Positions 1 to 20,425 of a stretch of DNA of 64,000 bases are shown here, piece by piece (positions within the stretch are counted from its first letter, which is position 1; each line of letters opens with the position of its first letter). The DNA comes from Mycobacterium sp. (GTDB lineage Bacteria > Actinomycetota > Actinomycetes > Mycobacteriales > Mycobacteriaceae), in contig DATJQO010000016.1 in NCBI GenBank assembly GCA_035505695.1, positions 627 to 64,626 on the forward strand, read 5' to 3'. Under the pieces are notes generated by a model, which did not search any database, was not told the DNA's origin, and saw nothing but the letters and a program-made list of their open reading frames with translations. A program made the translations under genes and the position numbers.

Positions 1-1
1 T

Positions 2-307
2 GCGTTGATCTGGGGCCGATTCCGGCGGCTCTCCGAAGGCTTGCACCTCGTCCGGCGTGAGGTCCAGGGCCTCCGGCATGCTCAGGCCGATCTCGCGGGC
101 CTCGGCCAGCGTGCGAGACGCCTCGCGGTGCGGCCTGGCCTGCGGTGCCTGCAACCGCTCCCCGACGACGCAATTCGGCTCCGGCTCGCCGGGACGAGCG
201 AACATTGGGGCGTGGCCGCAGCGTTGTGGCGGCTCAGTCTGCGCGCCCCCGCCGCTCCGCTCGATTGAATTCGCCTTGCCTTCAACGATGTTGCTATGTC
301 CCATCAT
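2..307 (-). CDS. hypothetical protein, N-terminal part (ORF continues past window start); island/phage-associated
   Basis: Hand translation from ATG at 307-305 gives 102 stop-free codons (MMGHSNIVEGKANSIERSGG...SRTLAEAREIGLSMPEALDLTPDEVQAF...) with G/C-rich third positions. AGGAA lies just upstream. It is absent from the ORF track because no stop lies inside the window. Confidence 0.4.
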   Translation of the reverse strand, partial: MMGHSNIVEGKANSIERSGGGAQTEPPQRCGHAPMFARPGEPEPNCVVGERLQAPQARPHREASRTLAEAREIGLSMPEALDLTPDEVQAFGEPPESAPDQR

Positions 308-340
308 TTCCTAGCTTCTCTAGAAATCAAAGTGATTGTG

Positions 341-616
341 TCATCGGGGAATACGACGAACCGCCGTTCTTCTCGTGCAGACCGTCCAAACCGGGCAGGC
401 AGCCCAGATGGCAGATATTACGACCGCCGCCACCGGCTTCCCCGCCTCGTGATACCCGCGCTCCAACAGCGCCACCCGCTCCGCTTCCTCAGCCTCGAAA
501 GCCGCCAACCGCTCTGGGCTTTCGCTTGCCGCAAGCCAGCCATCCGCCGAAGCGCCCCGCTGCTCGCACACGGCGTGTACGACATAGGCGTAAGCGCCGG
601 GAGCATGGATGCTCAT
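341..616 (-). CDS. hypothetical small protein
   Basis: 91-aa ORF co-directional with and tightly spaced to its neighbours. The first ~65 codons look protein-like (MSIHAPGAYAYVVHAVCEQRGASADGWLAASESPERLAAFEAEEAERVALLERGYHEAGK). No family recognised. Confidence 0.3.
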   Translation of the reverse strand: MSIHAPGAYAYVVHAVCEQRGASADGWLAASESPERLAAFEAEEAERVALLERGYHEAGKPVAAVVISAIWAACPVWTVCTRRTAVRRIPR

Positions 617-667
617 ATCCTGGCCACCCCGCCGCCGCGACCCCGTTGCGCACCACAGGCATTCGAA

Positions 668-1054
668 CTAGCCCCCGTTCGCCCCCTTCATTCTCTCCCG
701 GGTCCACCGTGCGTTAGCCGCCGCCTGAGCCTTCCTGCTGGTCAACGACATCGGCTGCGGTACCTCCGTGCTGATCTGCCGGTGAAGCCGGGAGATCGAA
801 CCCTCTAGCAGCCGCAGTTCCGCAGCCAGCTTGACCCTCACCCCAAGGTCTTTGCGATCCCTGCACTGCTCGTACTGCTCCGAGAGTTCGACGCGCCGGT
901 CAACCGCAGCACCAAGCATCTCGATCAAATCGAGTTCTTGGGCAGACCAAACCAGTTCCCGCCCAGTCGCTTTGGAGGCCGACGCCAACTCGTCATCGAG
1001 CGCCGCGATAAGTGCCTGCGCTGCTTGCGTTTTCGGTGCCCTCATGCCGGTCAT
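668..1054 (-). CDS. hypothetical helical protein (phage-like small protein)
   Basis: This is the C-terminal 128 codons of ORF 668..1333, starting at an internal ATG (1054) directly preceded by AGGA. The sequence is charged and helical (…LDDELASASKATGRELVWSAQELDLIEMLGAAVDRRVELSEQYEQCRDRKDLGVRVKLAAELRLLEGSISRLHRQ…). The upstream part of the ORF is His/Pro low-complexity read-through. Confidence 0.45.
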   Translation of the reverse strand: MTGMRAPKTQAAQALIAALDDELASASKATGRELVWSAQELDLIEMLGAAVDRRVELSEQYEQCRDRKDLGVRVKLAAELRLLEGSISRLHRQISTEVPQPMSLTSRKAQAAANARWTRERMKGANGG

Positions 1055-1271
1055 CCTAGCATCGCCCCAAGACAGCAGCGCGGAGCGGCAAACAGGCGCA
1101 GCGTAGCTTGCCAAGCGGCTGACCTGCCGAAACTCAGGCCGGAAGCGTGCGCGCCGGAATCCGCTGTGGCGGCCGTAGCCCTCGGGGATGGCGGCGGGGG
1201 GTGGTGCCGGGGGTGGTGTTGGTGGGCGGATGGTCACCGGTTGTGATGGGGTGGTGTCGAGGGGATGGTGG

Positions 1272-1616
1272 TCAGTCCGGGGAATGGCTGAATGGTGGCA
1301 GTCCCCAGGATGGTGCGCGGTTGGCGTGTTCACGTGATGTCGGGAAGCGCGCCGCTGGCGATGATCGGATGGTGCGCTGCATGATGGGGTGGGCTGTGAG
1401 CCGGCGGTGGGGTTGCCGGTCGGCAGATCCCCGGCGGATGGGCAGGGTGGTCGTTGGGCAGGAGATGGTTGGCGCTATGTTCGCGTTGGCCGTGCCTGCG
1501 CCCAGCGCGATGACGGCCAAGCCCAAGCCACCGGCGAGAACAGCTCGGGTGCCCACTTTCGTCGAAACGACAGTGTGCGGCCCCAACGGCGGTTCATCCT
1601 TGGACATAGATTTCAT
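1272..1616 (-). CDS. possible secreted protein or remnant (signal-peptide-like N-terminus only)
   Basis: The N-terminus MKSMSKDEPPLGPHTVVSTKVGTRAVLAGGLGLAVIALGAGTANA resembles a Sec signal peptide. The remainder is Arg/Pro/His-rich and looks out of frame or degenerate. Confidence 0.25.
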   Translation of the reverse strand: MKSMSKDEPPLGPHTVVSTKVGTRAVLAGGLGLAVIALGAGTANANIAPTISCPTTTLPIRRGSADRQPHRRLTAHPIMQRTIRSSPAARFPTSREHANRAPSWGLPPFSHSPD

Positions 1617-1821
1617 AGCTGCACTGCGCCGACAGCGTCTGAGAGCCGGCGGGCTCTTGCAGCCTGGCGCGACGTTGCTTCTACGGGCCCGGCGGCGCCG
1701 CTGCCGCGGCGAATACGGCTTGGCGCAGGTCGGTCGTCTTCAGGGCCACCGCGCCTGCCAGCCCGGGCACCAACAGTGGTGGCGAGGGAATGATCGCGAT
1801 GGCCGTCAACACACCATCTCG

Positions 1822-2718
1822 CTAACGTCGTTCGGTTTCGGCGCCATCAGCGGCGCTGGCCTCCGACTGGGCGGCGGCCTGACCACGGGCGAGCGCCGCG
1901 GTAGCCACCACCGTCACCACGACCGCCACACCCAGGGCGACATAACCTAAGGCGTTGGTGTGGATCGTCTCGCCGAGCACGACGATTCCAAGCACCGAGC
2001 CGACGACCGGCTCGGTGACCAACATGGTCGGCATAGAGGCGGTCAGCGACCCGGCCCGGAAGGATGACTGCTGAAACGCCGTAGCCGTCACCGCGATCCC
2101 CGCCCACCAGTACAGTTCCGGCGCCCGCAATAGCGCCGAGAGGCCGTGCCCAAGCAGTTCCGTCACGCCCTTTGTCAACACCGCGACCACACCCCACAGC
2201 GAGCCAGAGATCAGCGCCAGCGGCACCGCCCTGCGCGTGCCGGGCCACATCCGCGCACCCAGCCCGCACAGGATCATCGCCGGAACCATGACGGCGGCCA
2301 CCCTGAGCCAGGTCTCCGGCGACCCATGCGAGCGCCCGGGCTGCGGATTGCCGACGGTGACGATCACTGCGACGCCGGCGGCGAGCAGCACGGCCCACGT
2401 CCACTGCCAGCGGGTGACGCGGCGATGGTAGATCTTCGCATTTATCGGTAACGCGAATAGCAAAGAGGTGCACAAGATCGCCTGCACCTCCACCACCGAG
2501 CCGAGGTCGAGGGCTGCCGCCTGCAGGGCGAACCCGATGCCTCCGCCGATGGTGCCCAGCCACCACTGGCGATCGCGCAACAGCCGGGTGAACAGCCCGA
2601 CAATGCCGACTTCCTCATCGGTCACCTCGTGGGCGGACCGCAGCTGGATGACATCCCCGAGGCCGATGAAAAAGGCGGCGCCCAGGGCGAGCAGCGCGGC
2701 GATGTCTGCTTTCGCCAT
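1822..2718 (-). CDS. DMT/EamA-like integral membrane transporter
   Basis: 298 aa with about 10 hydrophobic helices arranged as two repeated halves. The hydrophobic segments are Gly/Ala/Val-rich, as is typical of drug/metabolite transporter family proteins. Confidence 0.7.
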   Translation of the reverse strand: MAKADIAALLALGAAFFIGLGDVIQLRSAHEVTDEEVGIVGLFTRLLRDRQWWLGTIGGGIGFALQAAALDLGSVVEVQAILCTSLLFALPINAKIYHRRVTRWQWTWAVLLAAGVAVIVTVGNPQPGRSHGSPETWLRVAAVMVPAMILCGLGARMWPGTRRAVPLALISGSLWGVVAVLTKGVTELLGHGLSALLRAPELYWWAGIAVTATAFQQSSFRAGSLTASMPTMLVTEPVVGSVLGIVVLGETIHTNALGYVALGVAVVVTVVATAALARGQAAAQSEASAADGAETERR

Positions 2719-2804
2719 GGGCGCCTTCTCGGAGTAAGGGGAAACCTGCGGGCAGGCAACCCGGCAACCTGTTTGGATGGCGAGGTCGGGTGGTTGACGT
2801 CTCG

Positions 2805-2816
2805 ACGATAGCTATC
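2805..2816. promoter_or_regulatory. perfect 12-bp palindrome CGATAGCTATCG upstream of the DMT gene
   Basis: Read directly. It lies 87 nt upstream of the DMT start codon (2718) and immediately before the HNH-like remnant. Confidence 0.3.
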
Positions 2817-2824
2817 GGACGCCA

Positions 2825-3180
2825 CGGCGCAAGTGCGCGGGTATCCGCGCAGACGTGCAGGTGATGAATGAGAGCCAAGCCGCCTCGAGGTGACGACGCA
2901 CTCCCAAACCCGCACCGCGTCCACGACCGCCGTGGCCATGCCCCGCCAGGGCACGCAAGTCGCCGGCACCGCGCCGACGGCCCTGAAGCGATCCTCACCG
3001 GTTCGGGCGGGGCGATCCCGACGGGACGGTGGGTGGGCGCGGTACCCTGCAGCGCCGGCGCGCCCGGCCGAGTGCCAGATCGTGGGCAACGGTCAACTTT
3101 GGACTACCGAAACACCGCCGCCGCCCATCGACGGTCCACGCAGACAAGTTCAGAGCTCAGCCCCGATCCTCTGGCGCCGA
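2825..3180 (+). pseudogene. degenerate HNH / DUF222 (REP13E12-type) C-terminal remnant
   Basis: Family-like strings appear across three plus-strand frames: RKCAGIRADVQVMNE; then AKPPRGDDALPNPHRVHDRRGH, which resembles the GG-TD..L..C..HH core; then DGGWARY...GNGQLWTTETPPPPIDGPRRQV, which resembles GGW.T..G..W.PPP.LD.G.PR. Several frame changes and a TGA interrupt it. Confidence 0.3.
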
Positions 3181-3305
3181 ACCAGCCCGAAGTCTGGCCC
3201 ACTAACCCCGGAGACCGGATGGTGTTAACCGACTTGAAGGAAGTCCATTTACGGGTCAACCATTACGGCCAACGTCAATCAGTATCTCGACGTCCTGCTA
3301 CCAGG

Positions 3306-4841
3306 TCAGCGTGAGGGATCAGCCCGAATAGCGTCTGCCTGTGGGTCGAGGCCAAAGACCTGCACGGCCGCTGATTTGCCCTTCAGCGCGTGAAACCCCC
3401 GGTCGGTGAGCGCAGCCGGTCGAGAAGACAGGGTGTCAACGGTCTGGCCGGTGAGAAGGATTGCGTCGCCAGTGTTCTTGGTGAGTTGCTCTACGCGGGC
3501 CGCGACGTTCACGGTGTCACCGATGAGGGTGAACTCCAACTTGCCGCCGCCACCGATGGTGCCCGCGATCACAACCCCGGTGTTGATCCCAATCCCGATC
3601 TGAAGCGCGCCGCCGAATCGCTCAGCGACCAAGCGATGAATCCGCACAGCAGCGCTCAACGCCGAATCGGCGTGATCCGCAAGGTCGTTCGGCGCACCGA
3701 ATACGGCCAACGCGCCATCGCCCAGGAACTTGTTGACGTGCCCACCGGCATCAACGACAGCGGGCACCACGATCTCAAACAGCGCGTTCAGGCGCGAGAC
3801 CGTATCCTCGGCGGTGTTCGCCTCGGCGAACGGCGTGAAGTCACGGATGTCCACAAACATCACCGTCACCTCGCGGCGCTCCCCGGTGAAGACATCGTCG
3901 CCCTGCTCGAGTAGCCGCGCCGCCAGCGCCGGGTCAACGTAGGTTCCGAACGCCGCCTGAAGTCGTTGCCGCTCGGCCAAACCGGCCTGCATGCGGTTGA
4001 ACGACCCCGCCAAGGCACCGAGGTCATCGTCTTGCACCACCGGCAAGCGTTGGCTGTAGTCGCCGACCGCAACACGTTTGGTGCCTTCGGCGAGGTCGCG
4101 AATCGGTTGGAGGGAGGGCGAAAACCCGGCTCCGACGGTGATCGGCAGCCCCATGCCAAACGCCAAGCTAAAGGCGATCACGACAGCGAGTAGGGGAACC
4201 TCACTGACCCGATGGAACACAGCCGCCAGCATCGCGCCCGCCAGGGCGAAGACGAAAGCGACGCCCAGCATGAACGCGTTGGACCAGGCGGCAAAAGTCG
4301 GGCGAGAGCGCGGAAGGGAATCACCGATGCCCGTATCACCGGCTAGCGCGGCTCGCGCTGGCCGCAGGGATGCTTCTGAGAAGCTGTGGCTCGCGGCCAA
4401 CTGGGTGGTAGCTCCGAGGACGGCACCCCATACGCCGTACTGGACGACCCGCGACCCGGTCGCTCCGGCGATCGCACCGACAACGACCGCAAGCAGGGTG
4501 GCCCAAACGGCGGTGATGACCACCGCTCGGAAGAACCCCTCCCGAAGGTACCTGTAGGTGTCCGTCAGGGCTGTCGCCCGATCGACCTCCTGGGCCGCCG
4601 CCCACCGCTCAACGGAGCGGAGTCGGCCCAGGCCAGGAAGAACGGTCGCGTAAACCAGCACTGGCACGGCCACAACGGTGACAGCAGCCGTCTCGACGTA
4701 ATGATTGGAATGCTCGTAGGCGGTAATGATAATCGACGACACGAGCCAGATCGGGAGCAACATAAGGGTACTGATCACAAAGATCGCCCACGAGTACCTC
4801 GCCCCGTACCGATCCCACACCCACTGCCAGATGCGATCCAT
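3306..4841 (-). CDS. membrane-anchored HAMP-domain class III adenylate/guanylate cyclase
   Basis: 511 aa with N-terminal multi-TM region and a HAMP-like linker (RDLAEGTKRVAVGDYSQRLPVVQDDDLGALAGSFNRM). Cyclase motifs are VTVMFVDIRDFTPF, GDGALAVFGAP, IGINTGVVIAG and FTLIGDTVNVAARVE. The architecture resembles the Rv1318c/Rv1319c/Rv1320c type. Confidence 0.9.
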   Translation of the reverse strand: MDRIWQWVWDRYGARYSWAIFVISTLMLLPIWLVSSIIITAYEHSNHYVETAAVTVVAVPVLVYATVLPGLGRLRSVERWAAAQEVDRATALTDTYRYLREGFFRAVVITAVWATLLAVVVGAIAGATGSRVVQYGVWGAVLGATTQLAASHSFSEASLRPARAALAGDTGIGDSLPRSRPTFAAWSNAFMLGVAFVFALAGAMLAAVFHRVSEVPLLAVVIAFSLAFGMGLPITVGAGFSPSLQPIRDLAEGTKRVAVGDYSQRLPVVQDDDLGALAGSFNRMQAGLAERQRLQAAFGTYVDPALAARLLEQGDDVFTGERREVTVMFVDIRDFTPFAEANTAEDTVSRLNALFEIVVPAVVDAGGHVNKFLGDGALAVFGAPNDLADHADSALSAAVRIHRLVAERFGGALQIGIGINTGVVIAGTIGGGGKLEFTLIGDTVNVAARVEQLTKNTGDAILLTGQTVDTLSSRPAALTDRGFHALKGKSAAVQVFGLDPQADAIRADPSR

Positions 4842-5042
4842 GCCATGAGGCTAAGCCTGAGCCGCCGAAAACGACCTTCGGTTGGGCCGCGAGTTGAACA
4901 CAGCGACAGACGGCTTCCTCGCGATGTTCGAACGGCCCTCAGCGGGCGATCCACTGCGCGATGGGCCACTCGCAGTCACTCGACGGTAGCAACGATATCC
5001 GCGACCACCGCCAGGATCAGGACGATGGTGAAACCCAGTGAG

Positions 5043-5342
5043 TCACCAGGGCATCCCCCGTGATTGGCGCGGCGGCGGTGCAGGTATCCCGGCCGGTGCC
5101 AGCCTGCCGGTGCGCCAGGCCGTCAGGTAGTCACCGTCCGGCACGCAGCCTGCCGCCGTGATCGGCCTGTCCGGTAGAGACGCACAGACAGCGGCTGTCG
5201 GCGGCGCGGTGCTGGCCTTCCAGTCCACCAGGCGCTGCGCTCTATCCCACACAGCCTCTGCGGTGTCGCCGGTCAGGAAGCACTCAGGTACACCCGTGTG
5301 CTGAGATACCGCCGCGATGAATTCGGCTGGCATGTCGCTCAT
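5043..5342 (-). CDS. hypothetical protein (orphan, 99 aa)
   Basis: ATG is preceded by GGAG at about 6 nt. It is co-directional with and 52 nt downstream of the 242-aa ORF. No family recognised. Confidence 0.55.
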   Translation of the reverse strand: MSDMPAEFIAAVSQHTGVPECFLTGDTAEAVWDRAQRLVDWKASTAPPTAAVCASLPDRPITAAGCVPDGDYLTAWRTGRLAPAGIPAPPPRQSRGMPW

Positions 5343-5394
5343 GTTGATCTCCTACCGTAGCGATGGAACTGGCAGCGGGAGGCTCGTCAAGCCG

Positions 5395-6123
5395 TCACGG
5401 GCCGGATGGGTCATACGGTTCGCCGTTCGTGTACGGCTCAGCCGTGATCGTGGCCGAGTACGGGTTATACAGCGGAGGCGGCGGGTTGTCGTTGGCGATG
5501 GCCTTGGTCAGGGCCGCGTGATTCTGCGCCAGTACGGCGTGCTGCTTGGCCTTGAGCGTGGCCTCGGCCTGCGCCTCGTCGAGGCCGGGAACTCTTGACG
5601 CCAACGCGTTCGGCAGCCAGTCGGACGGGACGCCACGCGATGCCAAGTAGTCCGGCAGTTCCTCGGCCAGGTTAGCAATCTGGTCATCAGGGGTTGAGCG
5701 AATCAATTCCTGCACGGCCGCAACCAGTTTGGCCTTGTCTGGGACGCTATCCAGCACGCGCTCCTTGCGGTGCCAGAAGGACTGCGCCGCAAGGCGGGCC
5801 TCGACATCGTTGCCAACCTTCTGGCCCTTGATAAGGTCGTCCACTTTGGTCTGCGCGTCGTCGGCGTCGGCCTTGACGGCATCGAGGGCGGGCTGCAAAG
5901 CCAGCGCGGCATCCGACACCTGGAAGGCACCAGCGTTGTGCTTCAACACGTCTGGGTCGATGTTCGGGCTATGAGCGGCACGCCAAGCGGTGTACTGATC
6001 CGCGACGGCTTGCTGCGTCCGCAGTGTGCGCTCGACAGGGGTTTTGCCGCCAGGGTCGATGAAGCCGGACGGAATTGGCGGCGGATAGGCCCGACGTGCT
6101 GGCCGGACAGTTGGAAATATCAC
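5395..6123 (-). CDS. hypothetical helical protein (orphan, 242 aa)
   Basis: GTG start is preceded by GGGAG at 7 nt and by an in-frame TAG. The protein is Ala/Asp/Lys-rich and helical, has no TM segment, and ends in a Pro-rich tail (NPPPPLYNPY...). No family recognised. Confidence 0.6.
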   Translation of the reverse strand: MIFPTVRPARRAYPPPIPSGFIDPGGKTPVERTLRTQQAVADQYTAWRAAHSPNIDPDVLKHNAGAFQVSDAALALQPALDAVKADADDAQTKVDDLIKGQKVGNDVEARLAAQSFWHRKERVLDSVPDKAKLVAAVQELIRSTPDDQIANLAEELPDYLASRGVPSDWLPNALASRVPGLDEAQAEATLKAKQHAVLAQNHAALTKAIANDNPPPPLYNPYSATITAEPYTNGEPYDPSGP

Positions 6124-6231
6124 TACTGAACTCCCTTGCAGTGCCGTCGATTTGAAGACGGACGTTCAAGGACAGTCTAACGCGCCCGACCGGTCACGCT
6201 CTGCACGCCAGCGGTGTGTCTGACGGGGCAT

Positions 6232-8907
6232 TCAGCTTCGGTGTTCGAGTTCTGTTCTGGCCTGGTCGATTTGGTCGTAGGCGTAAGTCACCATCGCGGC
6301 GGTGGTCATCGTCTCACCCTTGCGGGCGAGCGATTCGTAGGTCTGGTCGCCGAGGACATCGCGGAGGTGGGTGATCGTGGTGGTGATCTCGGGTAACACC
6401 GCCGCGGCCATCGGACTGAGGGCGAAGCCAGCGATGGTGGCCGCGGGTTCATAGCGTTCGAGCCGGTCGAAAAGAGTGGCGAGGCTAGCCAGCGGCACGC
6501 GGATCGTCGTGCTGTCGCCAGCGTTGTGGAAGTTGCGGATCGCCAGAGTCAGGTGATCGAACGCGGCCACGGTGCCGCCGTGTTCGGTCTCAAGTAGGGC
6601 CAGACGGTTCGCCAGGACTGCCGCGGCAGCGCGATTGCCGCTGTCTTGAGCGATCACCAGACCCCGCCCGAGGGCGTTAAGCGCCCCGACGGGATCTGCG
6701 TCACGGAAAGCCGAACCGTAGGCACCGAGCGCCAACGAAAGCAACATCGAGTTGCCTGTTGCCTCCGCAGCCTCGATGACGCCATCCGCGCAATCCATCG
6801 CCTCTCCACCGGAACCGGCCAGTGCAAGGGCCAAAACCCGCCATCCCCAGATGTAGACGGTGGTGTCGCGGCGGCGTGCGAGCTGGGCGCGGCACCACTC
6901 GACCATCCTTTCGGGCTGGCCGATGGCCAGGTACACAGTGCCGAGCGCGGCCTCGGTGCCGAACGGCACCTCGTAGCGGCCGGTGCCGATCACCGTCTTA
7001 CCGGCGTCGCAATAGCCGACAGCCGCCTCGATTCGTCCGGTCGTGTAGCACGCCGACGCAATCACGTACAGGAACGCCAGCCGGGGGTGGTCGACGGCGC
7101 GGGCGGGCTCGATCAGCTCTTCAGCCCAGGCGATCGGCTCAACGGTTTGGACCAAAGCGCCGAGCCACCCCGCATAGGTGGCGATAGTGGCGGCGACATC
7201 CAGGTCGCCGTGGTCGGCGGCCCACCGGAACGCGGTGCGCAGATTGGCCAGCTCGACAGCGAACCAGTCGTAGGCCTCCGGCTGGCGGGGGCTGTCCCAC
7301 AGGGCCAGGATGTCGGCTTCGCGCCCTGCGAAATAGCGCGAGTGCGCGGCCCGAATCTCGGAAGCCTCGCCACCGGCGACCAGTTGTTCCTCGGCGAACT
7401 GGCGAATCGTCTCCAGCATCGCAAACCGGGTCCGCCCCGAAGAGCGGTCGGCGACCAAAAGCGACTTGCGCACCAGCGCATCCAGCAGATCGAGGGTGGC
7501 ATAGTCGTCGACACTTTCGGATCCGGCTACCGCACAAGCGCTTTGCACGTCAAATCCACCGGCGAACACCGAACACCTAACCAGCAGCGCCTTTTCGGCA
7601 TCATCGAGGTGGTCGTAGGACCACGCCACCGCGTGGCGCAGGGTGTGGTGCCGCGCCAGGCCACGCCGGGATCCGACCAGCAGCCGGAACCGCTGATCCA
7701 GACGGTCACGGACCTCGTTCGCGGTCATCGACGCCATCCGTGACGCCGCCAACTCGATGGCCAACGGGATTCCGTCGAGGCGGCGGCAGATCTCGACCAC
7801 CGCGGCAGCCTCGCGAGGCTGTTCCATGGAGAAGCGCGGGGCCACACTGCGGGCGCGTTCGACGAACAGATCGACTGCCGCAGAGTCAATTCCCGCACCG
7901 ACGTCCAGCGACGGCACCGGCCACAGTTGGTCGTCGGCGACCCCCAAACCTTCGCGGCTGGTCACCAAGATTTTCACGGTCGCCGAGTGCGTGAGGATTG
8001 CTTCGATCAGATCGGCGGCGGCGTCGAGAACGTGTTCGCAGTTGTCGAACACCAACAACCGCAGCCTGCCCTCTAAAGCGGAGGCCACCGAGTCGGTCAC
8101 TGTCTTGCCCGGTTGCTGGGTGATGCCCAGCATCGCCGCCACCGCATCGGGTACCGCCGCCGGATCAGTGACCGTGGCGAGTTCGAAAATCCAAACTCCG
8201 TCGGGAAATTCATCGGCCAGCCGTGCCGCGACTTCCAGTGCGAGACGGGTCTTTCCGACCCCGCCCACCCCGGTCAACGTCACCAACCGATGCGACCGCA
8301 CCGCCGCTTCGATTTCGGCCACCTCGCACTCGCGCCCGATCAAGCTGGTGGTCGCCGGCCGCAGATTTCCCGGCGTCGGATCGAGCGCCCGCAAAGGCGG
8401 GAATTCGGTGCGCAGGCCCTCGGCTCGTAGCTGAAACACACCAACGGGCGTCGGCACATCGCGCAGCCGACGCGGCCCCAAGTCGAGGACGTCGACCCCG
8501 CTGAGCAGCATTGCCGTTGAGTCCGCTATCAAGACCTGACCGCCGTGACCGGCGGCCATCACCCGCGCCGCACGGTTCAGCACCGCACCGAAGTAGTCAC
8601 GCTCGCGGAGTTCTGCTTCGCCGGTCGCGATGCCCATCCGCACCGGCAACTCCAGTTCCCGCTGTGCAGCCACGGCGGCATCCACTGCTGCCCTTGGTGA
8701 CGAGAACGCCGCGCATACCCCGTCTCCGGTGTGCTTGAACAACCAGCCCCCGTGCGCCTCAATAGCGGTGCGCAGCACCTTGTCATGGGCGGCCAGGGCC
8801 GCCCGCATCGCGTTCGCGTCGGACTCCCACCGACGCGTCGAACCCTCCACATCGGTGAACAGAAACGTCACCACCCCCGAAGGAGCAGTCGCCCGGTCAG
8901 CGGACAC
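6232..8907 (-). CDS. class III nucleotide cyclase - NB-ARC/STAND P-loop NTPase - TPR-like repeat protein
   Basis: 891 aa. N-terminal cyclase motifs are VTFLFTDVEGSTRRWE, KHTGDGVCAAFSS, MGIATGEAE and LNRAARVMAAGHGGQVL. The Walker A is GVGGVGKTRLA, followed by a long helical repeat region. I see no LuxR-type HTH at the C-terminus. Confidence 0.9.
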   Translation of the reverse strand: MSADRATAPSGVVTFLFTDVEGSTRRWESDANAMRAALAAHDKVLRTAIEAHGGWLFKHTGDGVCAAFSSPRAAVDAAVAAQRELELPVRMGIATGEAELRERDYFGAVLNRAARVMAAGHGGQVLIADSTAMLLSGVDVLDLGPRRLRDVPTPVGVFQLRAEGLRTEFPPLRALDPTPGNLRPATTSLIGRECEVAEIEAAVRSHRLVTLTGVGGVGKTRLALEVAARLADEFPDGVWIFELATVTDPAAVPDAVAAMLGITQQPGKTVTDSVASALEGRLRLLVFDNCEHVLDAAADLIEAILTHSATVKILVTSREGLGVADDQLWPVPSLDVGAGIDSAAVDLFVERARSVAPRFSMEQPREAAAVVEICRRLDGIPLAIELAASRMASMTANEVRDRLDQRFRLLVGSRRGLARHHTLRHAVAWSYDHLDDAEKALLVRCSVFAGGFDVQSACAVAGSESVDDYATLDLLDALVRKSLLVADRSSGRTRFAMLETIRQFAEEQLVAGGEASEIRAAHSRYFAGREADILALWDSPRQPEAYDWFAVELANLRTAFRWAADHGDLDVAATIATYAGWLGALVQTVEPIAWAEELIEPARAVDHPRLAFLYVIASACYTTGRIEAAVGYCDAGKTVIGTGRYEVPFGTEAALGTVYLAIGQPERMVEWCRAQLARRRDTTVYIWGWRVLALALAGSGGEAMDCADGVIEAAEATGNSMLLSLALGAYGSAFRDADPVGALNALGRGLVIAQDSGNRAAAAVLANRLALLETEHGGTVAAFDHLTLAIRNFHNAGDSTTIRVPLASLATLFDRLERYEPAATIAGFALSPMAAAVLPEITTTITHLRDVLGDQTYESLARKGETMTTAAMVTYAYDQIDQARTELEHRS

Positions 8908-9017
8908 CCCAGCAGAATGTCACACAGACCTGCTACTAGCTACCTCGTAGATCGACTCGATTCGAGTTTGCCGAGCGGTGCCCGTGACGCCTCTGCCGGA
9001 TCGCTGTCGCCCAGGGC

Positions 9018-9167
9018 CTGGCGCAACTGGCGTGACTGGCGCAACTGAGCGTGACCAGGCTGTTTGTGTGACGTGGCCTGGTATGACTGGTCGGCGTGAC
9101 TGCACCTAGTCGCGCCAAGCATTTCCGCAGGTCGGCCGCAGTCACGCTAGTTGCGCCAATCACGCCA
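9018..9167. repeat. iteron-like repeat cluster: 27/28-bp inverted repeat plus direct repeats
   Basis: 9028-9055 (tggcgtgactggcgcaactgagcgtgac) matches the reverse complement of 9141-9167 at 26 of 28 positions. ctggcgcaact is directly repeated at 9018-9028 and 9036-9046. Further GCGTGAC copies start near 9067 and 9093. Confidence 0.75.
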
Positions 9168-10347
9168 GTGGTGGTGGTCGGCGTGGCCGGTCTGGCTGCC
9201 GTAGCGACCAAAATGTTTGCCGGGGAAAGCCCTCGGACTCCGAAACAACCCTGAGCCGCGCAGAGGCACGTTCGATGCTGCGCTGGCTGAATCCCTCGCT
9301 GCGTCCGGCATTCTTTACGTCTCGGGATCTCGCCCGGCCTTCCTGAAGCAGGTAGTCCTCTAGCCATTGCACCGCCTCGGGTGGCTCGTCATCATTGTTG
9401 CGGCTTAATAGGTCCCGTGCGTCGTGATCGCTATAGCCAACCCCACTGGACTCGTGGCACGCCCCGAAGGTCGTCGGGCACTAGCTGATACAGAAGCGAT
9501 GGCGGCTTGGGAGCGAGGTTGTTCTTCACCGACGCCAGCACCCGTTGATCCGCGTTGTCGGGGTCGGTGGCGACGATCATCCCGGCACGTGCCGCGCCGA
9601 CGATGCCGATGGATCCGCCGCCCCGATAGAGGGGATCACCGTTACCTTTATTTAGGTGCCGGAGCAGAAGAATTGAGCATGAGGTACTTTCGGCCAGCGC
9701 CGCCAGGCGCGCCAGTACGCGCCGAACATCTTGATCTTTGTGCGCGTCGGTGCCAGTCGGCAGATAGGCCATCAGCACGTCGATGATGACCAGCCGGGCG
9801 TGCGTCCCCGTGACAAGCGTGCGAAGCTGTTCGACATCGGCCAGTGTGGGCGGCCGCAGGGTGCCCTCGTCGTCGATTGGGACGCCCTGCACTGCAACGA
9901 CTCTGGACACGTCGGCGTTGGCGGCATCTAGCCGAGGTCGGATGGTGTCGGCCAGGCCGTCCTCTGCTGACATCAGGATCACGTCGCCCGGACAGTTGCA
10001 ACGTGTCCCGTCCGGCCATTTGCCGCCGGTACTGACGATTGCGCCGAATGTCAGTGCAAGTGTGGATTTCCCGAGTCCAGGGTCGCCGTCGAGGGTGATT
10101 ACCTTGCCCAGGGGGATCCGGCCGGGCCATAGCCTCTGACTTGCTCTGGTTGTACGGCATCAAGCCTGACGGCGGAGAATCCTAGTCCGTTCGGCTGATC
10201 CGGTGGCTCATACGGTGGTGGAATATCGTCTTCGTAGTGATTGGCGTGCGATGCGCCGTTACGGCTGGAGGGCTGTTCAGCGGCGAACCGCTCGGCAGCC
10301 GCTTTGCCTCGGGCCAACAACTTTTCGTCGGCGGTCACCGTGACCAC
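9160..10347 (-). pseudogene. RepA-like AAA_25/RecA-fold ATPase with C-terminal wHTH, frameshifted
   Basis: Three frames join into one protein. The pieces are VVTVTADEKLL...VQPEQVR, then WPGRIPLGKVITLDGDPGLGKSTLALTF...RVQW, then YSDHDARDLLSRNNDDEPPEAVQWLEDYLLQEGRARSRDVKNAGRSEGFSQRSIERASARLRV. One-nucleotide shifts lie near 10130-10134 and 9436-9446. Confidence 0.7.
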
Positions 10348-10709: not shown

Positions 10710-10928
10710 TCACGCGTCTTGACCTGTGATTGCGGCAGCGTCTTCGCGCAGAATGCGCCAGCGGTTCCCGAACTTGGTTCCACGTAGCAAGCCGGTGCGT
10801 AGCCAGCGGTGCACCGTATAAAGGTGGACCTCGGCTATGGCCGCGACATCCTCCGGAGACAGCGTGCGCTGGATCGGGTCGATGGGGGCAAGAGGGGTTG
10901 CGTGTAGCTTGTTTGATTTACCGGGCAT
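10710..10928 (-). CDS. excisionase-family helix-turn-helix DNA-binding protein (Xis/RDF candidate)
   Basis: 72 aa. The string LSPEDVAAIAEVHLYTVHRWLRTGLLRGTKFGNRWRILREDAAAI matches the MerR-like excisionase HTH pattern. The ORF is intact. Confidence 0.8.
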   Translation of the reverse strand: MPGKSNKLHATPLAPIDPIQRTLSPEDVAAIAEVHLYTVHRWLRTGLLRGTKFGNRWRILREDAAAITGQDA

Positions 10929-12758: not shown

Positions 12759-13861
12759 CTACAGCGCACGACTGTAACGTGCGTTGGCGTACAACATGAT
12801 TCGCTGCCCCCCAGAGGCCAGGCGTTTAGTGTGATACAACCCCATGGCTTTGCCGCCGTCGAAAATCGCGAGGTAGTGATGCGCATGGCCGGCCATGCGG
12901 ATCAGGTCCGTCATGGGCAGCAGAGTGCCGCCACCGGTGCGGCCGCGGCCGGCTGCGGCTTCGAGGTCGGTCAATGTAGTGGTGACGATGACGCTGACGG
13001 GTAGCCCGTTGTGCTGACCCAATTCTCCTGACATCAGCAGGGCGCGCAGGCCGGCGAGCAGACCATCGTGGTTACGCTGACCCTGGCTGCGGCTGTCGCG
13101 CTGCACGGCTGGTTCCGGTGCCGGGCCGTCCACTATGGGCGTCTCGTCGTCAGGGTTGCACATGCCCGGGGCGGCCAGCTTGGCCAGCGCTGCGTCGAAC
13201 GTGGCGCGCAGCTCGGGGTTGAGGTAGCCGGTGATGCGGGACATGCCATCCAATTCCTGCGACCCGATGACGATCCCGCGCCGTCGCGCCCTGTCCTCGT
13301 CGGTGAAATTGCCGTCGGGGTTGAGGCAGTCCATTAACACTTTGCCGTATTTGGTCAGCTCGTCGGGGCAGTAGTGGCGGGCTTTCCGGGCCAGGTCGGC
13401 TTCGGTGGCGTGGCGGGTGAACAGGTCCACATGCTGCGGCACTTGGGCGAAGAAGCTGCGGATCACCCTCACGTGACCTTCGCCGAGTACGCCGTCGCGC
13501 TGGGCGGCTGCCGTCGCTGTCAGCTGAGGGGCCAAGGGTTCACCGGTCAGGGCGCGGCGCGGACCTAGATCTTCGGCGTCGGCGACCGGCGGCTGGCTTC
13601 GGCGGGATTGATCCGTAGCCGGTTGGCCAAGGCGTCGCGCAGTGTGCCGCCGAGCTCCTCTTGGTTGGCCTGCTCGGCGAGTTGATTGATCAACGCATGC
13701 CCCGGTGCCCGCAGCCGGCGAGCCACCCGCTCGAGGCGCTCCAGCGCCCGCAGCCGTTCCGGTGTGGTGAGCACGTCAAACGACAACTCGGACAAGCGCT
13801 CCGCACCGGACTCGAGCACGTCGAAGGCCTCGACCATGTCCTCACGACTGCTCGACCTCAT
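12759..13861 (-). pseudogene. REP13E12 / DUF222 family ORF, 5' two-thirds only, truncated at the insertion and frameshifted
   Basis: The pieces are [31 protein letters not shown]...[12 protein letters not shown] and [41 protein letters not shown]...[12 protein letters not shown], then a foreign tail NARYSRAL and a stop. The HNH domain is missing. A one-nucleotide shift lies near 13583-13586. Confidence 0.8.
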
Positions 13862-13917: not shown

Positions 13918-14562
13918 TCACCCCTGACGCCGCGGCCGCGGACGGTCACCGGCAAACCCCCGCACCACGTGCGCCCGCACGAACTCCGCGACTACCTCAG
14001 GATCGTCTATGTCCAGGGTCGATGAGGGCGTGCTGAATAGCGAAAACAGGATCCGGGCAAACCACTCACCGGCGGCCTCGACGTCGAGGTTCTTGCGGAC
14101 CTCGCCGGTGAGCTTGGCCGCGGACAGGTAGGGCGCGAAGAATTCTACGCACTCGCGCAGCAGCACGGCGGCATCCTTGGTCAGCAGCAGGCTGAGCGCA
14201 TCTTCGTCGAAATACCATCCTGAGGCGATGGCTTGGCGTGCTTGGGTCACGAACACCGCGGCGCGGCTGAACTTTTCCTCCAGCGACCCGCCCCGGTCCA
14301 TCGCTTTGGACATGTCACGGTAAAACTGCTCGGACGCATGCTCGGCGCACGCCTCAAGGACGGCGCCCTTGTCGCTGAAGTACTCATAGACGGTACTCCG
14401 GGAGACGTTGGCCGCCTTGGCGATATCCACTATCGTCGTCTTCTGGAGCCCCTGTCGGCAGAAGCATGCATACGCCGCCTCGACGATCAGCTCGCGGGTG
14501 TCGGTCGTCGGCTGAGATGGCTCGGTCGGCTCGGTCCTCAATCTCTCACCCACTCGGCGCAA
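13918..14562 (-). CDS. TetR-family transcriptional regulator
   Basis: The N-terminal HTH is TTIVDIAKAANVSRSTVYEYFSDKGAV, followed by a helical ligand-binding domain. The annotated start overlaps the upstream gene by 17 nt, so the true start may be slightly downstream. Confidence 0.88.
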   Translation of the reverse strand: MRRVGERLRTEPTEPSQPTTDTRELIVEAAYACFCRQGLQKTTIVDIAKAANVSRSTVYEYFSDKGAVLEACAEHASEQFYRDMSKAMDRGGSLEEKFSRAAVFVTQARQAIASGWYFDEDALSLLLTKDAAVLLRECVEFFAPYLSAAKLTGEVRKNLDVEAAGEWFARILFSLFSTPSSTLDIDDPEVVAEFVRAHVVRGFAGDRPRPRRQG

Positions 14563-15595: not shown

Positions 15596-16011
15596 CGTTT
15601 CCCTTCCGTCGGCCGGAATTGTTGCAGCACAAGGTCTTCAGAGCCGGCTCCGTCGAACGTCTGGTAGCAGACCTCCACGGGCATGCCGACCGTGACATCG
15701 GCCGGGTCGATATCACACAGGTTCGAAACCAGCCGCACGCCTTCATCGAGCTGCACCAGTACGACGATGTAGGGATAGTCGAAGAACGGGAACCGGGGTT
15801 CCAGCGGCATCACGTAGCTGTACACCGTGCCGCGACCCGACGATTCGATCGCATCCCACTCCAGCGAACGACAGTTCGGGCACATGGGCCGAGGCGGCTG
15901 GCGCAACGCTGCGCATCCGGTGCAGCGCTGGATCAGGAGTTTGTGCTCGCGCAGCCCGCTCCAGAAGAATTCGGTGTCCGGGCCGATCGCCGGCGCCCGT
16001 CGGGTCGCCAT
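15592..16011 (-). CDS. DUF35 Zn-ribbon/OB-fold protein (thiolase partner)
   Basis: 139 aa. CTGCAALRQPPRPMCPNCRS forms a four-Cys ribbon, followed by an OB-fold region. ATGA overlaps occur at both ends, with the upstream hydratase at 16011 and the downstream fusion ORF at 15592-15595. Confidence 0.85.
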   Translation of the reverse strand: MATRRAPAIGPDTEFFWSGLREHKLLIQRCTGCAALRQPPRPMCPNCRSLEWDAIESSGRGTVYSYVMPLEPRFPFFDYPYIVVLVQLDEGVRLVSNLCDIDPADVTVGMPVEVCYQTFDGAGSEDLVLQQFRPTEGKR

Positions 16012-17752: not shown

Positions 17753-17938
17753 GGCAAGCCTCCCTCAACGGACCGGGCCGGGCCGCGATCGGACACACTG
17801 CCCTGATGTGTCGGTGCCGTTGTGTCTACTCCCGGCCGGCTATCCCTGTCAATACACCGGTAACGCGATGAAGTAGTTCAGGATTCACCAGTTTGGTGAT
17901 TGACGGCCGAGGCGCACGGGTGAACACTGACTTTCTAG

Positions 17939-19435: not shown

Positions 19436-19489
19436 GGCGCGCCCCGTGAGCCTGTTGTAAGCGGGCCGTCACATGACAGGCTGCTCGAC

Positions 19490-20398: not shown

Positions 20399-20425
20399 CG
20401 CGCAGCGGCCGGTTAGCCTGCTGAC

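What the first reader, a model, noticed from the sequence alone, without database searches (positions are those of the whole stretch)
3306..8907. Co-directional two-cyclase cassette (cyclase-STAND-TPR, two orphan ORFs, membrane HAMP-cyclase) inside mobile-element-flanked DNA
Four consecutive minus-strand genes are separated by gaps of 108, 52 and 201 nt.
- 8907-6232 encodes a class III cyclase domain fused to a P-loop NB-ARC-like NTPase (GVGGVGKTRLA) and a long TPR-like region, with no LuxR HTH that I can see.
- 6123-5395 encodes a 242-aa helical protein with no TM segment and a good RBS.
- 5342-5043 encodes a 99-aa protein with a good RBS.
- 4841-3306 encodes a multi-TM + HAMP + class III cyclase.
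The block lies between a decayed integrase/Xis/RepA module and phage-like small ORFs, so it is in accessory DNA. STAND NTPases carrying an N-terminal effector domain are the architecture of Avs/NLR-like antiphage sensors. Nucleotide cyclases generate the signal in CBASS and Pycsar. I know of no assigned function for a cyclase-STAND paired with a second membrane cyclase and two orphans. The counter-argument is that cyclase-ATPase-(TPR/LuxR) proteins form a large paralogous family in mycobacteria (the Rv0386/Rv1358/Rv2488c types) usually regarded as regulators.
Basis: partly seen in the sequence, partly recalled or inferred. Interest (0 to 1): 0.7.

Follow-up and report, generated by a model that had tools for sequence, protein, structure and literature searches.

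The report
Cyclase genes riding a decayed mycobacterial satellite element
The four genes are real, but they are not one machine: two adenylyl cyclases of common mycobacterial types sit as cargo beside two backbone genes of a decayed, phiRv1-like phage-satellite element.

Summary
Four intact minus-strand genes lie at the stated coordinates, with gaps of 108, 52 and 201 nt and the stated domains.

The 'cassette' reading mostly fails.
- **The two 'orphans'.** They are conserved backbone genes of a family of roughly 14-kb integrative elements in slow-growing mycobacteria. The gene order is integrase, excisionase, DUF2742, replication/primase, HNH, ORF242, ORF99. Two relatives are bounded by a 21-bp tRNA-Arg repeat.
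- **ORF99.** It is a truncated homologue of phage head-scaffolding proteins.
- **ORF242/ORF99 without cyclases.** Most elements that carry this pair have no cyclase next to it.
- **The 891-aa protein.** It belongs to a very large mycobacterial family of cyclase, NB-ARC and TPR proteins, the Rv0386 type. An 85%-identical relative carries the LuxR tail.
- **The 511-aa protein.** It is a standard class IIIb HAMP adenylyl cyclase. Homologues of 77-88% identity sit in unrelated chromosomal places.
- **All four together.** This occurs only in the window's own lineage.

One link is real. In at least six lineages the cyclase-STAND gene sits directly upstream of ORF242. The 108-nt junction is 90-95% identical across them, while synonymous sites in ORF242 are near saturation.

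Whether the cyclase-STAND is satellite-borne immunity or regulation remains open.

The parts
12759..13861 (-). DUF222 (REP13E12-type) gene, split into two ORFs (13861-13565 and 13535-12759) and lacking its C-terminal part. It is the likely integration target of the element.
   Evidence: Pfam DUF222, E 6e-87 and 3.6e-11. The serine recombinase starts immediately after it. This is the arrangement known for phiRv1 (own knowledge: Bibb & Hatfull 2002, cited in PMC10654092).
11635..12733 (-). Serine recombinase pseudogene in two frames, with the C-terminal third missing.
   Evidence: Pfam Resolvase, E 1e-21. tblastn with the 486-aa M. asiaticum recombinase matches residues 9-218 and 217-347 in different frames.
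10722..10928 (-). Excisionase-like HTH_17 gene.
   Evidence: 39% identity to the M. asiaticum element HTH_17 protein. PHROG excisionase families, E 3e-6 to 3e-3.
9431..9982 (-). Fragment of a primase/helicase (AAA_25), the decayed replication module.
   Evidence: Pfam AAA_25, E 3.5e-15, covering only the last 118 profile positions. PHROG primase/helicase families.
6232..8907 (-). Cyclase-STAND: class III adenylyl cyclase, NB-ARC-type NTPase and a helical-repeat (TPR-like) C-terminus. It sits as cargo in slot 1 of the element.
   Evidence: The catalytic residues D19, K58, D62, D104, N111 and R115, and the Walker A/B motifs, are invariant in 34 homologues. The AlphaFold2 (AF2) model shows helical hairpins at 550-890 with pLDDT 70-93.
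6124..6231 (-). Conserved non-coding junction between cyclase-STAND and ORF242. It contains a candidate -10 element (TAGACT, fitting TANNNT) and an invariant 45-nt leader with the RBS.
   Evidence: 90-95% nt identity in every locus with cyclase-STAND upstream of ORF242, while ORF242 dS between the same lineages is 0.8-1.5. No RNA structure is supported.
5395..6123 (-). ORF242: all-helical soluble protein and a backbone gene of the element family. Its molecular function is not established.
   Evidence: 65 close homologues and 392 clusters at 50% identity. The AlphaFold2 (AF2) model has pLDDT 87.6. dN/dS is 0.2-0.4. No fold or PHROG match.
5043..5342 (-). ORF99: short form of a phage head-scaffolding-like protein. 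It keeps the C-terminal half and lacks the N-terminal coiled coil of the 134-135-aa forms.
   Evidence: PHROG head-scaffolding families: window protein E 1.6e-6; homologues E 6e-5, 8e-15 and 7e-15. Shared motifs are visible in the alignment of 11 homologues.
3306..4841 (-). Class IIIb membrane adenylyl cyclase with multiple TM segments and a HAMP domain. It sits as cargo in slot 2 of the element.
   Evidence: D331, K371, D375, T438, N445, R449. Homologues of 77-88% identity lie in three unrelated chromosomal contexts.
1822..2718 (-). EamA-family transporter, further slot-2 cargo. It is absent from related elements.
   Evidence: Pfam EamA, E 9e-7. Present only in the window lineage.
668..1045 (-). 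Conserved 125-aa element gene ('o221'). It recurs downstream of ORF242/ORF99 in other elements, so the right end of the element lies beyond the window start.
   Evidence: 45-77% identical homologues downstream of ORF99 in M. parmense, M. scrofulaceum, L032-35, L042 and L048-50.

Best explanation
The block is the middle of a decayed, phiRv1-type (PICI-like) integrative element. The element carries a serine recombinase and is inserted in a REP13E12/DUF222 gene.

**ORF242 and ORF99** are backbone genes of that element family. ORF99 is a truncated head-scaffolding homologue. By inference, the pair acts on a helper phage's capsid assembly, and it has its own conserved promoter and leader.

**The two cyclases** are independent cargo in two variable slots.
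- The 891-aa protein is a ligand-gated adenylyl cyclase. Inferred mechanism: a ligand binds the TPR-like repeats, nucleotide-dependent oligomerisation of the NB-ARC module follows, and this brings cyclase domains into the dimer that class III catalysis requires, so cAMP is made.
- The 511-aa protein is a class IIIb membrane cyclase. Its HAMP domain relays a membrane signal to the catalytic dimer.

The four genes are neighbours by descent of a mosaic element. They are not subunits of one system.
For: **Shown.**

1. *Backbone status of ORF242/ORF99.* The order integrase, excisionase, (DUF2742), replication/primase, (HNH), ORF242, (p81), ORF99 is seen in M. asiaticum L011, MAG L005, MAG L013, M. 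scrofulaceum L007, L034 and L042. The integrases are of both the tyrosine and the serine type.
2. *Element boundaries.* An exact 21-bp repeat of the tRNA-Arg 3' end flanks a 14.66-kb element in L042 and a 14.0-kb element in L007. The same 21-mer lies just upstream of the integrase in L005 and L034, and at the tRNA-Arg that closes the M. parmense remnant.
3. *ORF99 family and phage head scaffolding.* PHROG hits give E values from 1.6e-6 to 7e-15.
4. *Elements without cyclases.* About nine ORF242 lineages have no adjacent cyclase.
5. *Cyclase-STAND is not a co-evolving partner of ORF242.* Copies in elements are no closer to each other (69-82%) than to copies elsewhere (83-87%). Near-identical strains carry alleles only 77% identical, inside flanks that are 100% identical. 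Three of five close homologues looked up lie in other contexts together with other cyclases; none of the five has ORF242 or ORF99 nearby.
6. *Catalytic competence.* The six catalytic residues and Walker A/B are invariant in 34 homologues. The HAMP cyclase has the class IIIb Lys/Thr pair.
7. *Own promoter for ORF242.* TANNNT is preserved despite two substitutions, and the 45-nt leader is invariant.

**From the literature.** phiRv1 and phiRv2 are regarded as PICI-like satellites (PMC10654092, PMC10085698). CHD+LuxR proteins such as Rv0386 are active cyclases (PMC3466318).
Against: - The cyclase-STAND / ORF242 adjacency is not random. It occurs in at least six sequence-distinct lineages with a junction 90-95% identical.
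- L034 and L042 are collinear at about 75% nt identity from the integrase through cyclase-STAND to ORF242. Cyclase-STAND is therefore a long-term resident, and a functional link with ORF242/ORF99 cannot be excluded.
- Cyclases of three architectures recur in both slots: STAND, HAMP and LipJ-like. This could reflect selection for cAMP production by the element rather than chance.
- The satellite nature is inferred from gene content and att sites. No helper phage, capsid gene or terminase was found, and ORF242 has no detectable relative of known function.
- The right end of the window's own element was not located.
- No transcript data exist. No terminator was predicted in the gaps, so co-transcription is possible.
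Confidence: 0.6

Rival explanations
1. The cyclase-STAND is a single-gene, Avs/NLR-like anti-phage sensor carried in a satellite cargo hotspot. The TPR region would recognise a phage protein, the NB-ARC module would oligomerise, and the cyclase domains would flood the cell with cAMP (or another cyclic nucleotide), arresting growth or activating an effector encoded elsewhere.
For: - The tripartite layout (N-terminal enzyme, STAND NTPase, C-terminal repeat sensor) is the Avs layout.
- It sits in a variable slot of a PICI-like element. Satellites are known to carry defence systems (abstract of PMC10085698).
- There is allele replacement between otherwise identical strains.
- Variability is concentrated in periodic patches of the repeat region, at residues 641-660, 681-700, 721-740 and 761-780.
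- Some paralogues lie next to defence-like genes, such as a PLD-helicase-DUF3427 gene in L015 and a GmrSD_C gene in L056.
Against: - There is no hit to any Avs or other STAND defence model in PADLOC.
- The NTPase resembles the AfsR/FxSxx-TPR regulator type and the kinase- or BTAD-linked regulators found on plasmids.
- An 85%-identical relative carries a LuxR DNA-binding tail, which marks a transcription regulator.
- The family is very large and forms tandem arrays.
- The text search of the 2026 survey of defence STANDs found the word 'cyclase' nowhere in its main text.
- cAMP is an abundant housekeeping messenger in mycobacteria (own knowledge), so it is a poor suicide signal.
- No dedicated effector gene lies nearby.
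Confidence: 0.17
2. The cyclase-STAND is the satellite's own sensor or regulator. It would detect helper-phage infection or a host state and, through cAMP and a cAMP-responsive regulator binding the conserved junction, switch on ORF242/ORF99.
For: - The 108-nt junction with a promoter-like element is far more conserved than synonymous sites, and is found only where cyclase-STAND precedes ORF242.
- L034 and L042 keep cyclase-STAND in place across about 25% nt divergence.
- LuxR-tailed relatives are transcription factors (PMC3466318).
Against: - By eye I found no CRP-type palindrome in the junction. This was an inspection, not a formal scan.
- Most elements run ORF242/ORF99 without any cyclase-STAND.
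- Alleles in the slot are exchanged with paralogues from elsewhere.
- The conserved 3' end of the gene, shared by paralogues, could by itself explain part of the junction's conservation, through recombination.
Confidence: 0.1
3. All four genes form one signalling or defence system: a STAND cyclase, two accessory proteins and a membrane cyclase acting together.
For: - The four genes are co-directional with short gaps, and no terminator is predicted between them.
- ORF99 followed by the HAMP cyclase recurs in M. parmense (as a remnant), L037 and L043.
- All four genes are intact in a decayed element.
Against: - All four are found together only in the window lineage.
- In slot 2 the HAMP cyclase is replaced by a LipJ-like cyclase or by nothing.
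- HAMP cyclase homologues of 77-88% identity stand alone elsewhere.
- In M. parmense the HAMP cyclase is truncated.
- ORF242/ORF99 occur mostly without cyclases.
- Clustering of cyclases is general in these genomes.
Confidence: 0.05

Closest known systems
Mycobacterial CHD-ATPase-TPR-LuxR cyclases (Rv0386, Rv1358, Rv2488c)
   Same: The order is the same: an N-terminal class III cyclase, a P-loop NB-ARC/AAA NTPase and a helical-repeat region. A relative 85% identical over 881 residues ends in a GerE/LuxR HTH. The subfamily is restricted to Mycobacterium, and Rv0386 is an active cyclase (PMC3466318).
   Different: The window protein stops before the LuxR domain, as do nearly all of its 120 closest relatives. 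It has the canonical Lys/Asp substrate pair. Rv0386 uses Gln/Asn (own knowledge: Castro et al. 2005). It lies in a mobile element.
Class IIIb HAMP adenylyl cyclases of M. tuberculosis (Rv3645, Rv1318c-Rv1320c, Rv2435c)
   Same: Multi-TM anchor, HAMP domain and a class IIIb catalytic domain with Lys371/Thr438.
   Different: Direct orthology to a named M. tuberculosis gene was not tested. Here the gene is cargo in a mobile element, and 77-88% identical copies occupy different loci in M. marinum, M. malmoense and M. asiaticum.
phiRv1 / phiRv2 and other PICI-like satellites of mycobacteria
   Same: A serine or tyrosine integrase, an HTH_17 excisionase, DUF2742, a DUF3631 or other primase/replication gene, and HNH. 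Size is about 14 kb. Insertion is in REP13E12/DUF222 or in a tRNA (PMC10654092).
   Different: No capsid, protease or terminase gene was found. In their place are ORF242 and a truncated scaffolding homologue. Such elements would be missed by searches that require integrase plus capsid (method described in PMC10654092). The cargo consists of cyclases.
Antiviral STAND (Avs) / bacterial NLR-like sensors
   Same: The tripartite layout of effector, STAND NTPase and repeat sensor, and location in accessory DNA.
   Different: No match to a defence model. The NTPase is of the regulator type. A cyclase effector is not among the described Avs effectors. The paralogue family is very large.
Capsid-redirecting scaffold mimics of satellites (SaPI CpmB, P4 Sid)
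   Same: A small satellite-encoded protein related to the capsid-binding end of a phage scaffolding protein (ORF99). The comparison with CpmB and Sid rests on my own knowledge.
   Different: There is no sequence relationship to CpmB or Sid. No helper phage is known, and the function is untested.

Membership tests
Avs / antiviral STAND | STAND NTPase core with Walker A and B | tested here: met
   NB-ARC, E 3.3e-6. GVGGVGKT at 213-220 and LLVFDN at 284-289, both invariant.
Avs / antiviral STAND | Match to a curated defence model (PADLOC Avs and related) | tested here: not met
   The only hits are weak ones to PycC, TRIP13 and mad8, E 1.5e-3 to 4e-3.
Avs / antiviral STAND | Sensor binds a phage protein and the gene protects against phage | not testable with these tools
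   This needs phage challenge and binding assays.
Pycsar | Cyclase (PycC) next to a cyclic-nucleotide-binding effector (TM or TIR) | tested here: not met
   PycC profiles hit the catalytic domain of the HAMP cyclase (E 1.6e-24). No effector model hits ORF242 or ORF99. Neither has a TM segment. The specificity residues are of the adenylyl type.
CBASS | CD-NTase-fold cyclase | tested here: not met
   Both cyclases are class III (PF00211), and there are no CD-NTase hits.
CHD-ATPase-TPR-LuxR cyclases (Rv0386 type) | N-terminal class III cyclase with intact catalytic residues | tested here: met
   D19, K58, D62, D104, N111 and R115 are invariant in 34 homologues. The closest solved domains are GRESAG4, Ma1120, Rv1900c and Rv1264.
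CHD-ATPase-TPR-LuxR cyclases (Rv0386 type) | C-terminal LuxR/GerE HTH | tested here: not met
   There is no GerE hit. The protein ends at the point where the 85%-identical P0069 continues into GerE.
Class IIIb HAMP adenylyl cyclases | Multi-TM anchor, HAMP domain and a catalytic domain with Lys/Thr substrate residues | tested here: met
   HAMP, E 2.4e-12, and cyclase, E 8.5e-23. 5-6 hydrophobic segments; K371 and T438. The best solved relatives are class IIIb enzymes (OaPAC, bPAC, CyaB, sAC).
PICI-like / phiRv-type satellite | Integrase, excisionase and replication module in conserved order | tested here: met
   In the window these are decayed. They are intact in the relatives L005, L011, L034 and L042.
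PICI-like / phiRv-type satellite | Defined att sites and a size of about 10-15 kb | tested here: inconclusive
   Met in relatives: a 21-bp tRNA-Arg repeat bounds 14.0 and 14.66 kb. In the window only the REP13E12 side is visible. The 21-mer is absent, and the other end lies beyond position 1.
PICI-like / phiRv-type satellite | Capsid or packaging gene related to phage genes | tested here: inconclusive
   Only a scaffolding-like gene (ORF99) and an HNH gene in relatives were found. No capsid, protease or terminase was found among the ORFs scanned.
PICI-like / phiRv-type satellite | Induction and packaging by a helper phage | not testable with these tools
   tblastn of ORF242, ORF99 and the 135-aa form found nothing in 50,697 phage records. 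ORF242 found nothing in IMG/VR.
Phage head scaffolding proteins (PHROGs 2592, 9857, 1793) | Profile match over the scaffolding domain | tested here: inconclusive
   The window ORF99 matches only residues 7-46 (E 1.6e-6). The 134-135-aa homologues match profile positions 95-201 of 209 (E 7e-15 and 8e-15). In all cases only the C-terminal half of the profile is covered.

The most novel reading that the evidence does not exclude
A lineage of capsid-less, PICI-like satellites of slow-growing mycobacteria has stably recruited a cyclase-STAND protein next to its scaffold-mimic genes. The protein would be a phage-sensing NLR-like receptor whose output is a cyclic nucleotide. It would serve either to trigger the satellite's own morphogenesis genes through the hyper-conserved junction, or to abort infection. 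That would make cAMP synthesis a new STAND effector type, and it would suggest an immune or phage-sensing origin for part of the enigmatic mycobacterial cyclase expansion.
Probability: 0.15. Interest if true: 0.8.

Novelty: new variant of a known kind. Interest (0 to 1): 0.4.

Why it matters
Mycobacteria carry unusually many adenylyl cyclases, and most have no known input signal.

This analysis shows that members of three cyclase architectures travel as cargo on small satellite-like elements, and that alleles are swapped between near-identical strains. That gives a concrete route for how the cyclase repertoire expands and diversifies.

It also outlines a capsid-less relative of phiRv1/phiRv2 that searches requiring integrase plus capsid would miss. 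This relative has a scaffold-like gene that could be tested for capsid hijacking.

If the cyclase-STAND senses phage, it would add a new effector class to bacterial NLR-like immunity. If it does not, the finding is an ordinary mosaic of known gene families.

Tried and rejected
- **Fold search for ORF242.** The AF2 model is confident (pLDDT 87.6). Foldseek against the PDB and BFVD gave nothing better than E 0.8, so no function could be assigned.
- **PHROG scan of 40 distant ORF242 relatives.** No consistent family emerged.
- **Searches for ORF242 elsewhere.** There were no matches in phage records, plasmids or IMG/VR.
- **Scan of GTDB genomes.** A wide alignment failed. A narrower one returned only five loci. 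The metagenome scan was what revealed the recurrent adjacency.
- **AF2 of the 891-aa protein.** The model was poor (pLDDT 58) because the alignment was shallow. I therefore did not run a fold search on it, and I do not claim a closest solved STAND.
- **RNA element in the conserved junction.** This is not supported: no Rfam hit, z-score -0.46 and no covarying pair.
- **Intrinsic terminators or sigma-70 promoters in the three gaps.** None were found on the minus strand. That scan is not tuned to mycobacteria.
- **Repeats flanking the cyclase-STAND that might mark an insertion.** Only chance-level matches were found.
- **The missing HNH end of the DUF222 gene.** It would mark the other end of the element, but it was not found in the window.
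- **orf148 (2868-3314) and orf143 (8936-9367).** I considered these as genes and rejected them. They have no homologues, and their Arg/Pro-rich translations are typical of spurious high-GC ORFs.
- **The 21-bp tRNA-Arg att sequence.** It is absent from the window.

Full report
**1. Observation**

The gaps are 108, 52 and 201 nt. All four have the third-position GC bias of genuine genes in this 65% GC genome.

Pfam gives these results:
- In the 891-aa protein: a class III cyclase domain at residues 10-136 and an NB-ARC-type NTPase at residues 207-431.
- In the 511-aa protein: HAMP and a class III cyclase.
- In the two small proteins: nothing.

NCBIfam aligns residues 185-547 of the large protein with the FxSxx-TPR and AfsR regulator models. 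No LuxR domain is present.

PADLOC returns only PycC-type hits to the catalytic domains, which is generic class III homology. It returns no Avs or other STAND model.

**2. The flanks**

Upstream, at higher coordinates, lie four pieces of mobile-element debris:
- a split DUF222 (REP13E12-type) gene;
- a serine recombinase broken into two frames;
- an HTH_17 excisionase-like ORF;
- the tail of an AAA_25 primase/helicase.

A serine integrase abutting a truncated REP13E12 gene is the arrangement of phiRv1 in M. tuberculosis. That comparison rests on my own knowledge; the work is cited in PMC10654092. Beyond 13.9 kb the genes are ordinary lipid or steroid-type catabolism genes.

**3. The two 'orphans' are not orphans**

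- ORF242 has 65 close homologues in Mycobacterium, including M. parmense, M. asiaticum and M. scrofulaceum. An exhaustive profile search finds 392 clusters.
- ORF242 evolves under purifying selection, with dN/dS 0.2-0.4.
- Its predicted structure is a confident all-helical bundle (pLDDT 87.6). It has no structural or PHROG relative.
- ORF99 and its homologues match phage head-scaffolding PHROGs. E is 1.6e-6 for the window protein, 6e-5 for the M. asiaticum protein, and 8e-15 and 7e-15 for the 134-135-aa forms in L005 and L042.
- All of these cover only the C-terminal half of the scaffolding profile.
- The short forms, including the window's, lack the N-terminal coiled coil of the long forms but share the remaining motifs.

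**4. Context of the pair**

In M. asiaticum the order is: DUF222 fragment, serine recombinase, HTH_17, a 235-aa protein, DUF3631, ORF242, p81, ORF99.

| Locus | Gene order |
|---|---|
| MAG L005 | tyrosine integrase, excisionase-like, DUF3631, ORF242, ORF99 |
| M. scrofulaceum L007, MAG L013 | the same plan |
| L034, L042 | tyrosine integrase, excisionase, DUF2742, replication initiator, HNH, then the block |

An exact 21-bp repeat, GTGCCCCCGGCAGGATTCGAA, is the 3' end of a tRNA-Arg.
- It lies just upstream of the integrase and again at the tRNA itself in L042 (14.66 kb apart) and in L007 (14.0 kb apart).
- It also lies just upstream of the integrase in L005 and L034.
- It closes the M. parmense remnant at its tRNA-Arg.

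These are therefore site-specific integrative elements of about 14 kb, with ORF242/ORF99 in their interior. By gene content and size they are relatives of phiRv1 and phiRv2, which are regarded as PICI-like satellites (PMC10654092, PMC10085698). However, I found no capsid, protease or terminase gene among the ORFs scanned.

The window's copy is a decayed version of the serine-recombinase type. Its right end lies beyond position 1, because a conserved element gene (668-1045) is still inside the window.

**5. The cyclase-STAND**

- It belongs to a very large family. More than 8000 proteins pass E 1e-20 among the candidates scored. Hundreds are 81-85% identical, and nearly all are 875-905 aa without LuxR.
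- One relative, 85% identical over 881 residues, continues into a GerE/LuxR HTH. This ties the family to the CHD+LuxR proteins Rv0386, Rv1358 and Rv2488c (PMC3466318).
- The two metal aspartates, the Lys/Asp substrate pair, the Asn/Arg transition-state pair and Walker A/B are invariant in 34 homologues. Both enzymatic modules are therefore under selection.
- Variation is concentrated in patches about 40 residues apart in the C-terminal helical repeats.
- Close homologues occur in many contexts:

| Locus | Context |
|---|---|
| L014 | tandem array of four, next to LipJ-like cyclases |
| L015 | beside a PLD-helicase gene |
| L018 | beside a stressosome operon |
| L056 | at the glpR-moeA locus |
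| L057 | beside an IS110 and two LipJ-like cyclases |

- Clustering of cyclases with each other is thus general in these genomes.

**6. The HAMP cyclase**

It has the class IIIb signature: D331, K371, D375, T438, N445 and R449. Its closest solved relatives are class IIIb enzymes.

Homologues of 88%, 88% and 77% identity in M. marinum, M. malmoense and M. asiaticum sit in three unrelated chromosomal neighbourhoods. None has ORF242, ORF99 or a cyclase-STAND nearby. The M. asiaticum copy occupies the same glpR-moeA locus where another organism carries the LuxR-tailed cyclase-STAND. This underlines that cyclases are interchangeable accessory genes.

**7. How far the synteny goes**

The metagenome scan corrected my first impression that the cyclases were simply unrelated neighbours.

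- A cyclase-STAND gene lies directly upstream of ORF242 in at least six sequence-distinct lineages: the window; the L001-type allele; L030; the L031-35 group; the L038-42 group; and L023, judged by its junction.
- About nine lineages have none.
- L034 and L042 are collinear at about 75% nt identity from the integrase through cyclase-STAND to ORF242. The gene has therefore been resident in that element lineage for a long time.
- The 108-nt junction (window 6124-6231) is 90-95% identical in all of these loci, although synonymous sites in ORF242 differ by dS 0.8-1.5.
- The junction sequence is absent downstream of cyclase-STAND paralogues elsewhere, and absent upstream of ORF242 in elements without a cyclase.
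- It keeps a TANNNT motif (TAGACT or TAAGCT) and an invariant 45-nt leader with the RBS.
- It shows no sign of being a structured RNA.
- I read it as the promoter, operator and leader of ORF242/ORF99. This is an inference.

The occupant of the slot is nevertheless exchangeable.
- Element copies are no closer to each other (69-82%) than to non-element paralogues (83-87%).
- Contigs that are 100% identical to the window from position 1 to about 6250 carry an allele only about 80% identical at the nucleotide level (77% protein). Beyond 8956 they carry a different upstream neighbour.
- The same kind of breakpoint, about 85 nt upstream of the start codon, separates L039 from L042.

The HAMP cyclase follows ORF99 only in three settings:
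- the window lineage;
- M. parmense, where it is a truncated remnant inside the element;
- two short contigs.

In other elements that slot holds a LipJ-like cyclase or nothing. All four genes together are seen only in the window lineage.

**8. Interpretation**

The best-supported account is a mosaic.
- The backbone is a satellite-like element. ORF242 and ORF99 are probably directed at a helper phage's capsid assembly. This is inferred from the scaffolding homology and by analogy with scaffold mimics of other satellites.
- The element has two variable slots that have picked up adenylyl cyclases.
- The cyclase-STAND most likely works as a ligand-gated cyclase. Class III domains are active only as dimers, and STAND modules oligomerise on ligand and nucleotide binding, so oligomerisation would assemble active sites. 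Both premises are established for their families. The coupling here is inferred.
- The HAMP cyclase is a conventional membrane-signal-to-cAMP transducer.

Rivals that remain open:
- an Avs-like immune role for the cyclase-STAND as satellite cargo;
- a role as the satellite's own sensor controlling the conserved junction.

**9. Novelty and score**

Each gene family is known, and the element type is a variant of a known kind. Three things are new:
- the capsid-less element family with a scaffold-like gene;
- the recurrent cyclase cargo;
- the hyper-conserved junction.

None of this yet demonstrates a new mechanism. I score interest at 0.4. The reading in which a satellite-borne cyclase-STAND senses phage gets a 15% probability and would deserve about 0.8.

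Noticed in passing
window 6124-6231 (minus strand): The 108-nt spacer between cyclase-STAND and ORF242 is 90-95% identical across lineages whose ORF242 synonymous sites differ by dS 0.8-1.5. A TANNNT motif is kept despite substitutions, and the last 45 nt are invariant. No RNA structure or Rfam family explains it.
   Followed up: partly
window 6250-8956 versus L001:1209-3900: Metagenome contigs that are 100% identical to the window over positions 1-6250 drop to about 80% nt identity exactly across the cyclase-STAND gene, and become unalignable beyond 8956. There they carry a divergent cyclase in place of the integrase debris. Both configurations are supported by independent assemblies, so this is an allele or segment replacement between near-identical strains.
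   Followed up: yes
L042:1269-1289 and 15913-15933; L007:4151-4171 and 18166-18186: An exact 21-bp direct repeat of the tRNA-Arg 3' end bounds elements of 14.66 and 14.0 kb. The same 21-mer marks the integrase side in L005 and L034, and the tRNA side in M. parmense (L010:14827).
   Followed up: yes
L056:7001-9895 and L021:7001-8518: The LuxR-tailed relative of cyclase-STAND (85% identity) and the M. asiaticum homologue of the HAMP cyclase (77%) occupy the same chromosomal locus, upstream of glpR, an acetyltransferase, moeA and galU, in different organisms. This locus seems to accept different cyclases.
   Followed up: no
L014:1-13480; L057:251-7889; L039:1918-5023: Cyclase-STAND genes occur in tandem arrays (four in a row in L014) and repeatedly next to LipJ-like alpha/beta-hydrolase cyclases. 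Cyclase 'islands' appear to be a general feature of these soil mycobacteria.
   Followed up: partly
L032 versus L034 (L032:4122 onward, L034:3136 onward): Two contigs are 99% identical from the HNH gene through cyclase-STAND, ORF242 and ORF99. Upstream, one carries a serine-recombinase module and the other a tyrosine-integrase module. Integration modules are therefore swapped on the same right-hand part.
   Followed up: partly
window residues 641-780 of the 891-aa protein (about 6570-6985): Sequence variability among 119 close homologues peaks in four patches about 40 residues apart in the helical-repeat region. The pattern is expected for a variable binding surface on a repeat protein. No codon-level selection test was run.
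   Followed up: partly
window 2868-3314 (+) and 8936-9367 (-): These two ORFs have Arg/Pro-rich translations that look like junk, and no homologues or family hits. One of them (2868-3314) is called as a gene on the related metagenome contigs. They are probably not genes.
   Followed up: partly
L005:7278-14529: Next to the small element in this MAG lie a GmrSD-type restriction enzyme, IS elements and a type I restriction R subunit. This looks like a defence or mobile-element island beside the tRNA-Arg site.
   Followed up: no
window 14546-21847: Beyond the TetR gene the window carries a thiolase-like gene, a ChsH2-type OB-fold gene, a P450, an aldehyde dehydrogenase, a hydrolase and an acyl-CoA ligase. 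This is a lipid or steroid-type catabolic cluster that forms the chromosomal flank. A similar cluster precedes the element remnant in M. parmense.
   Followed up: no
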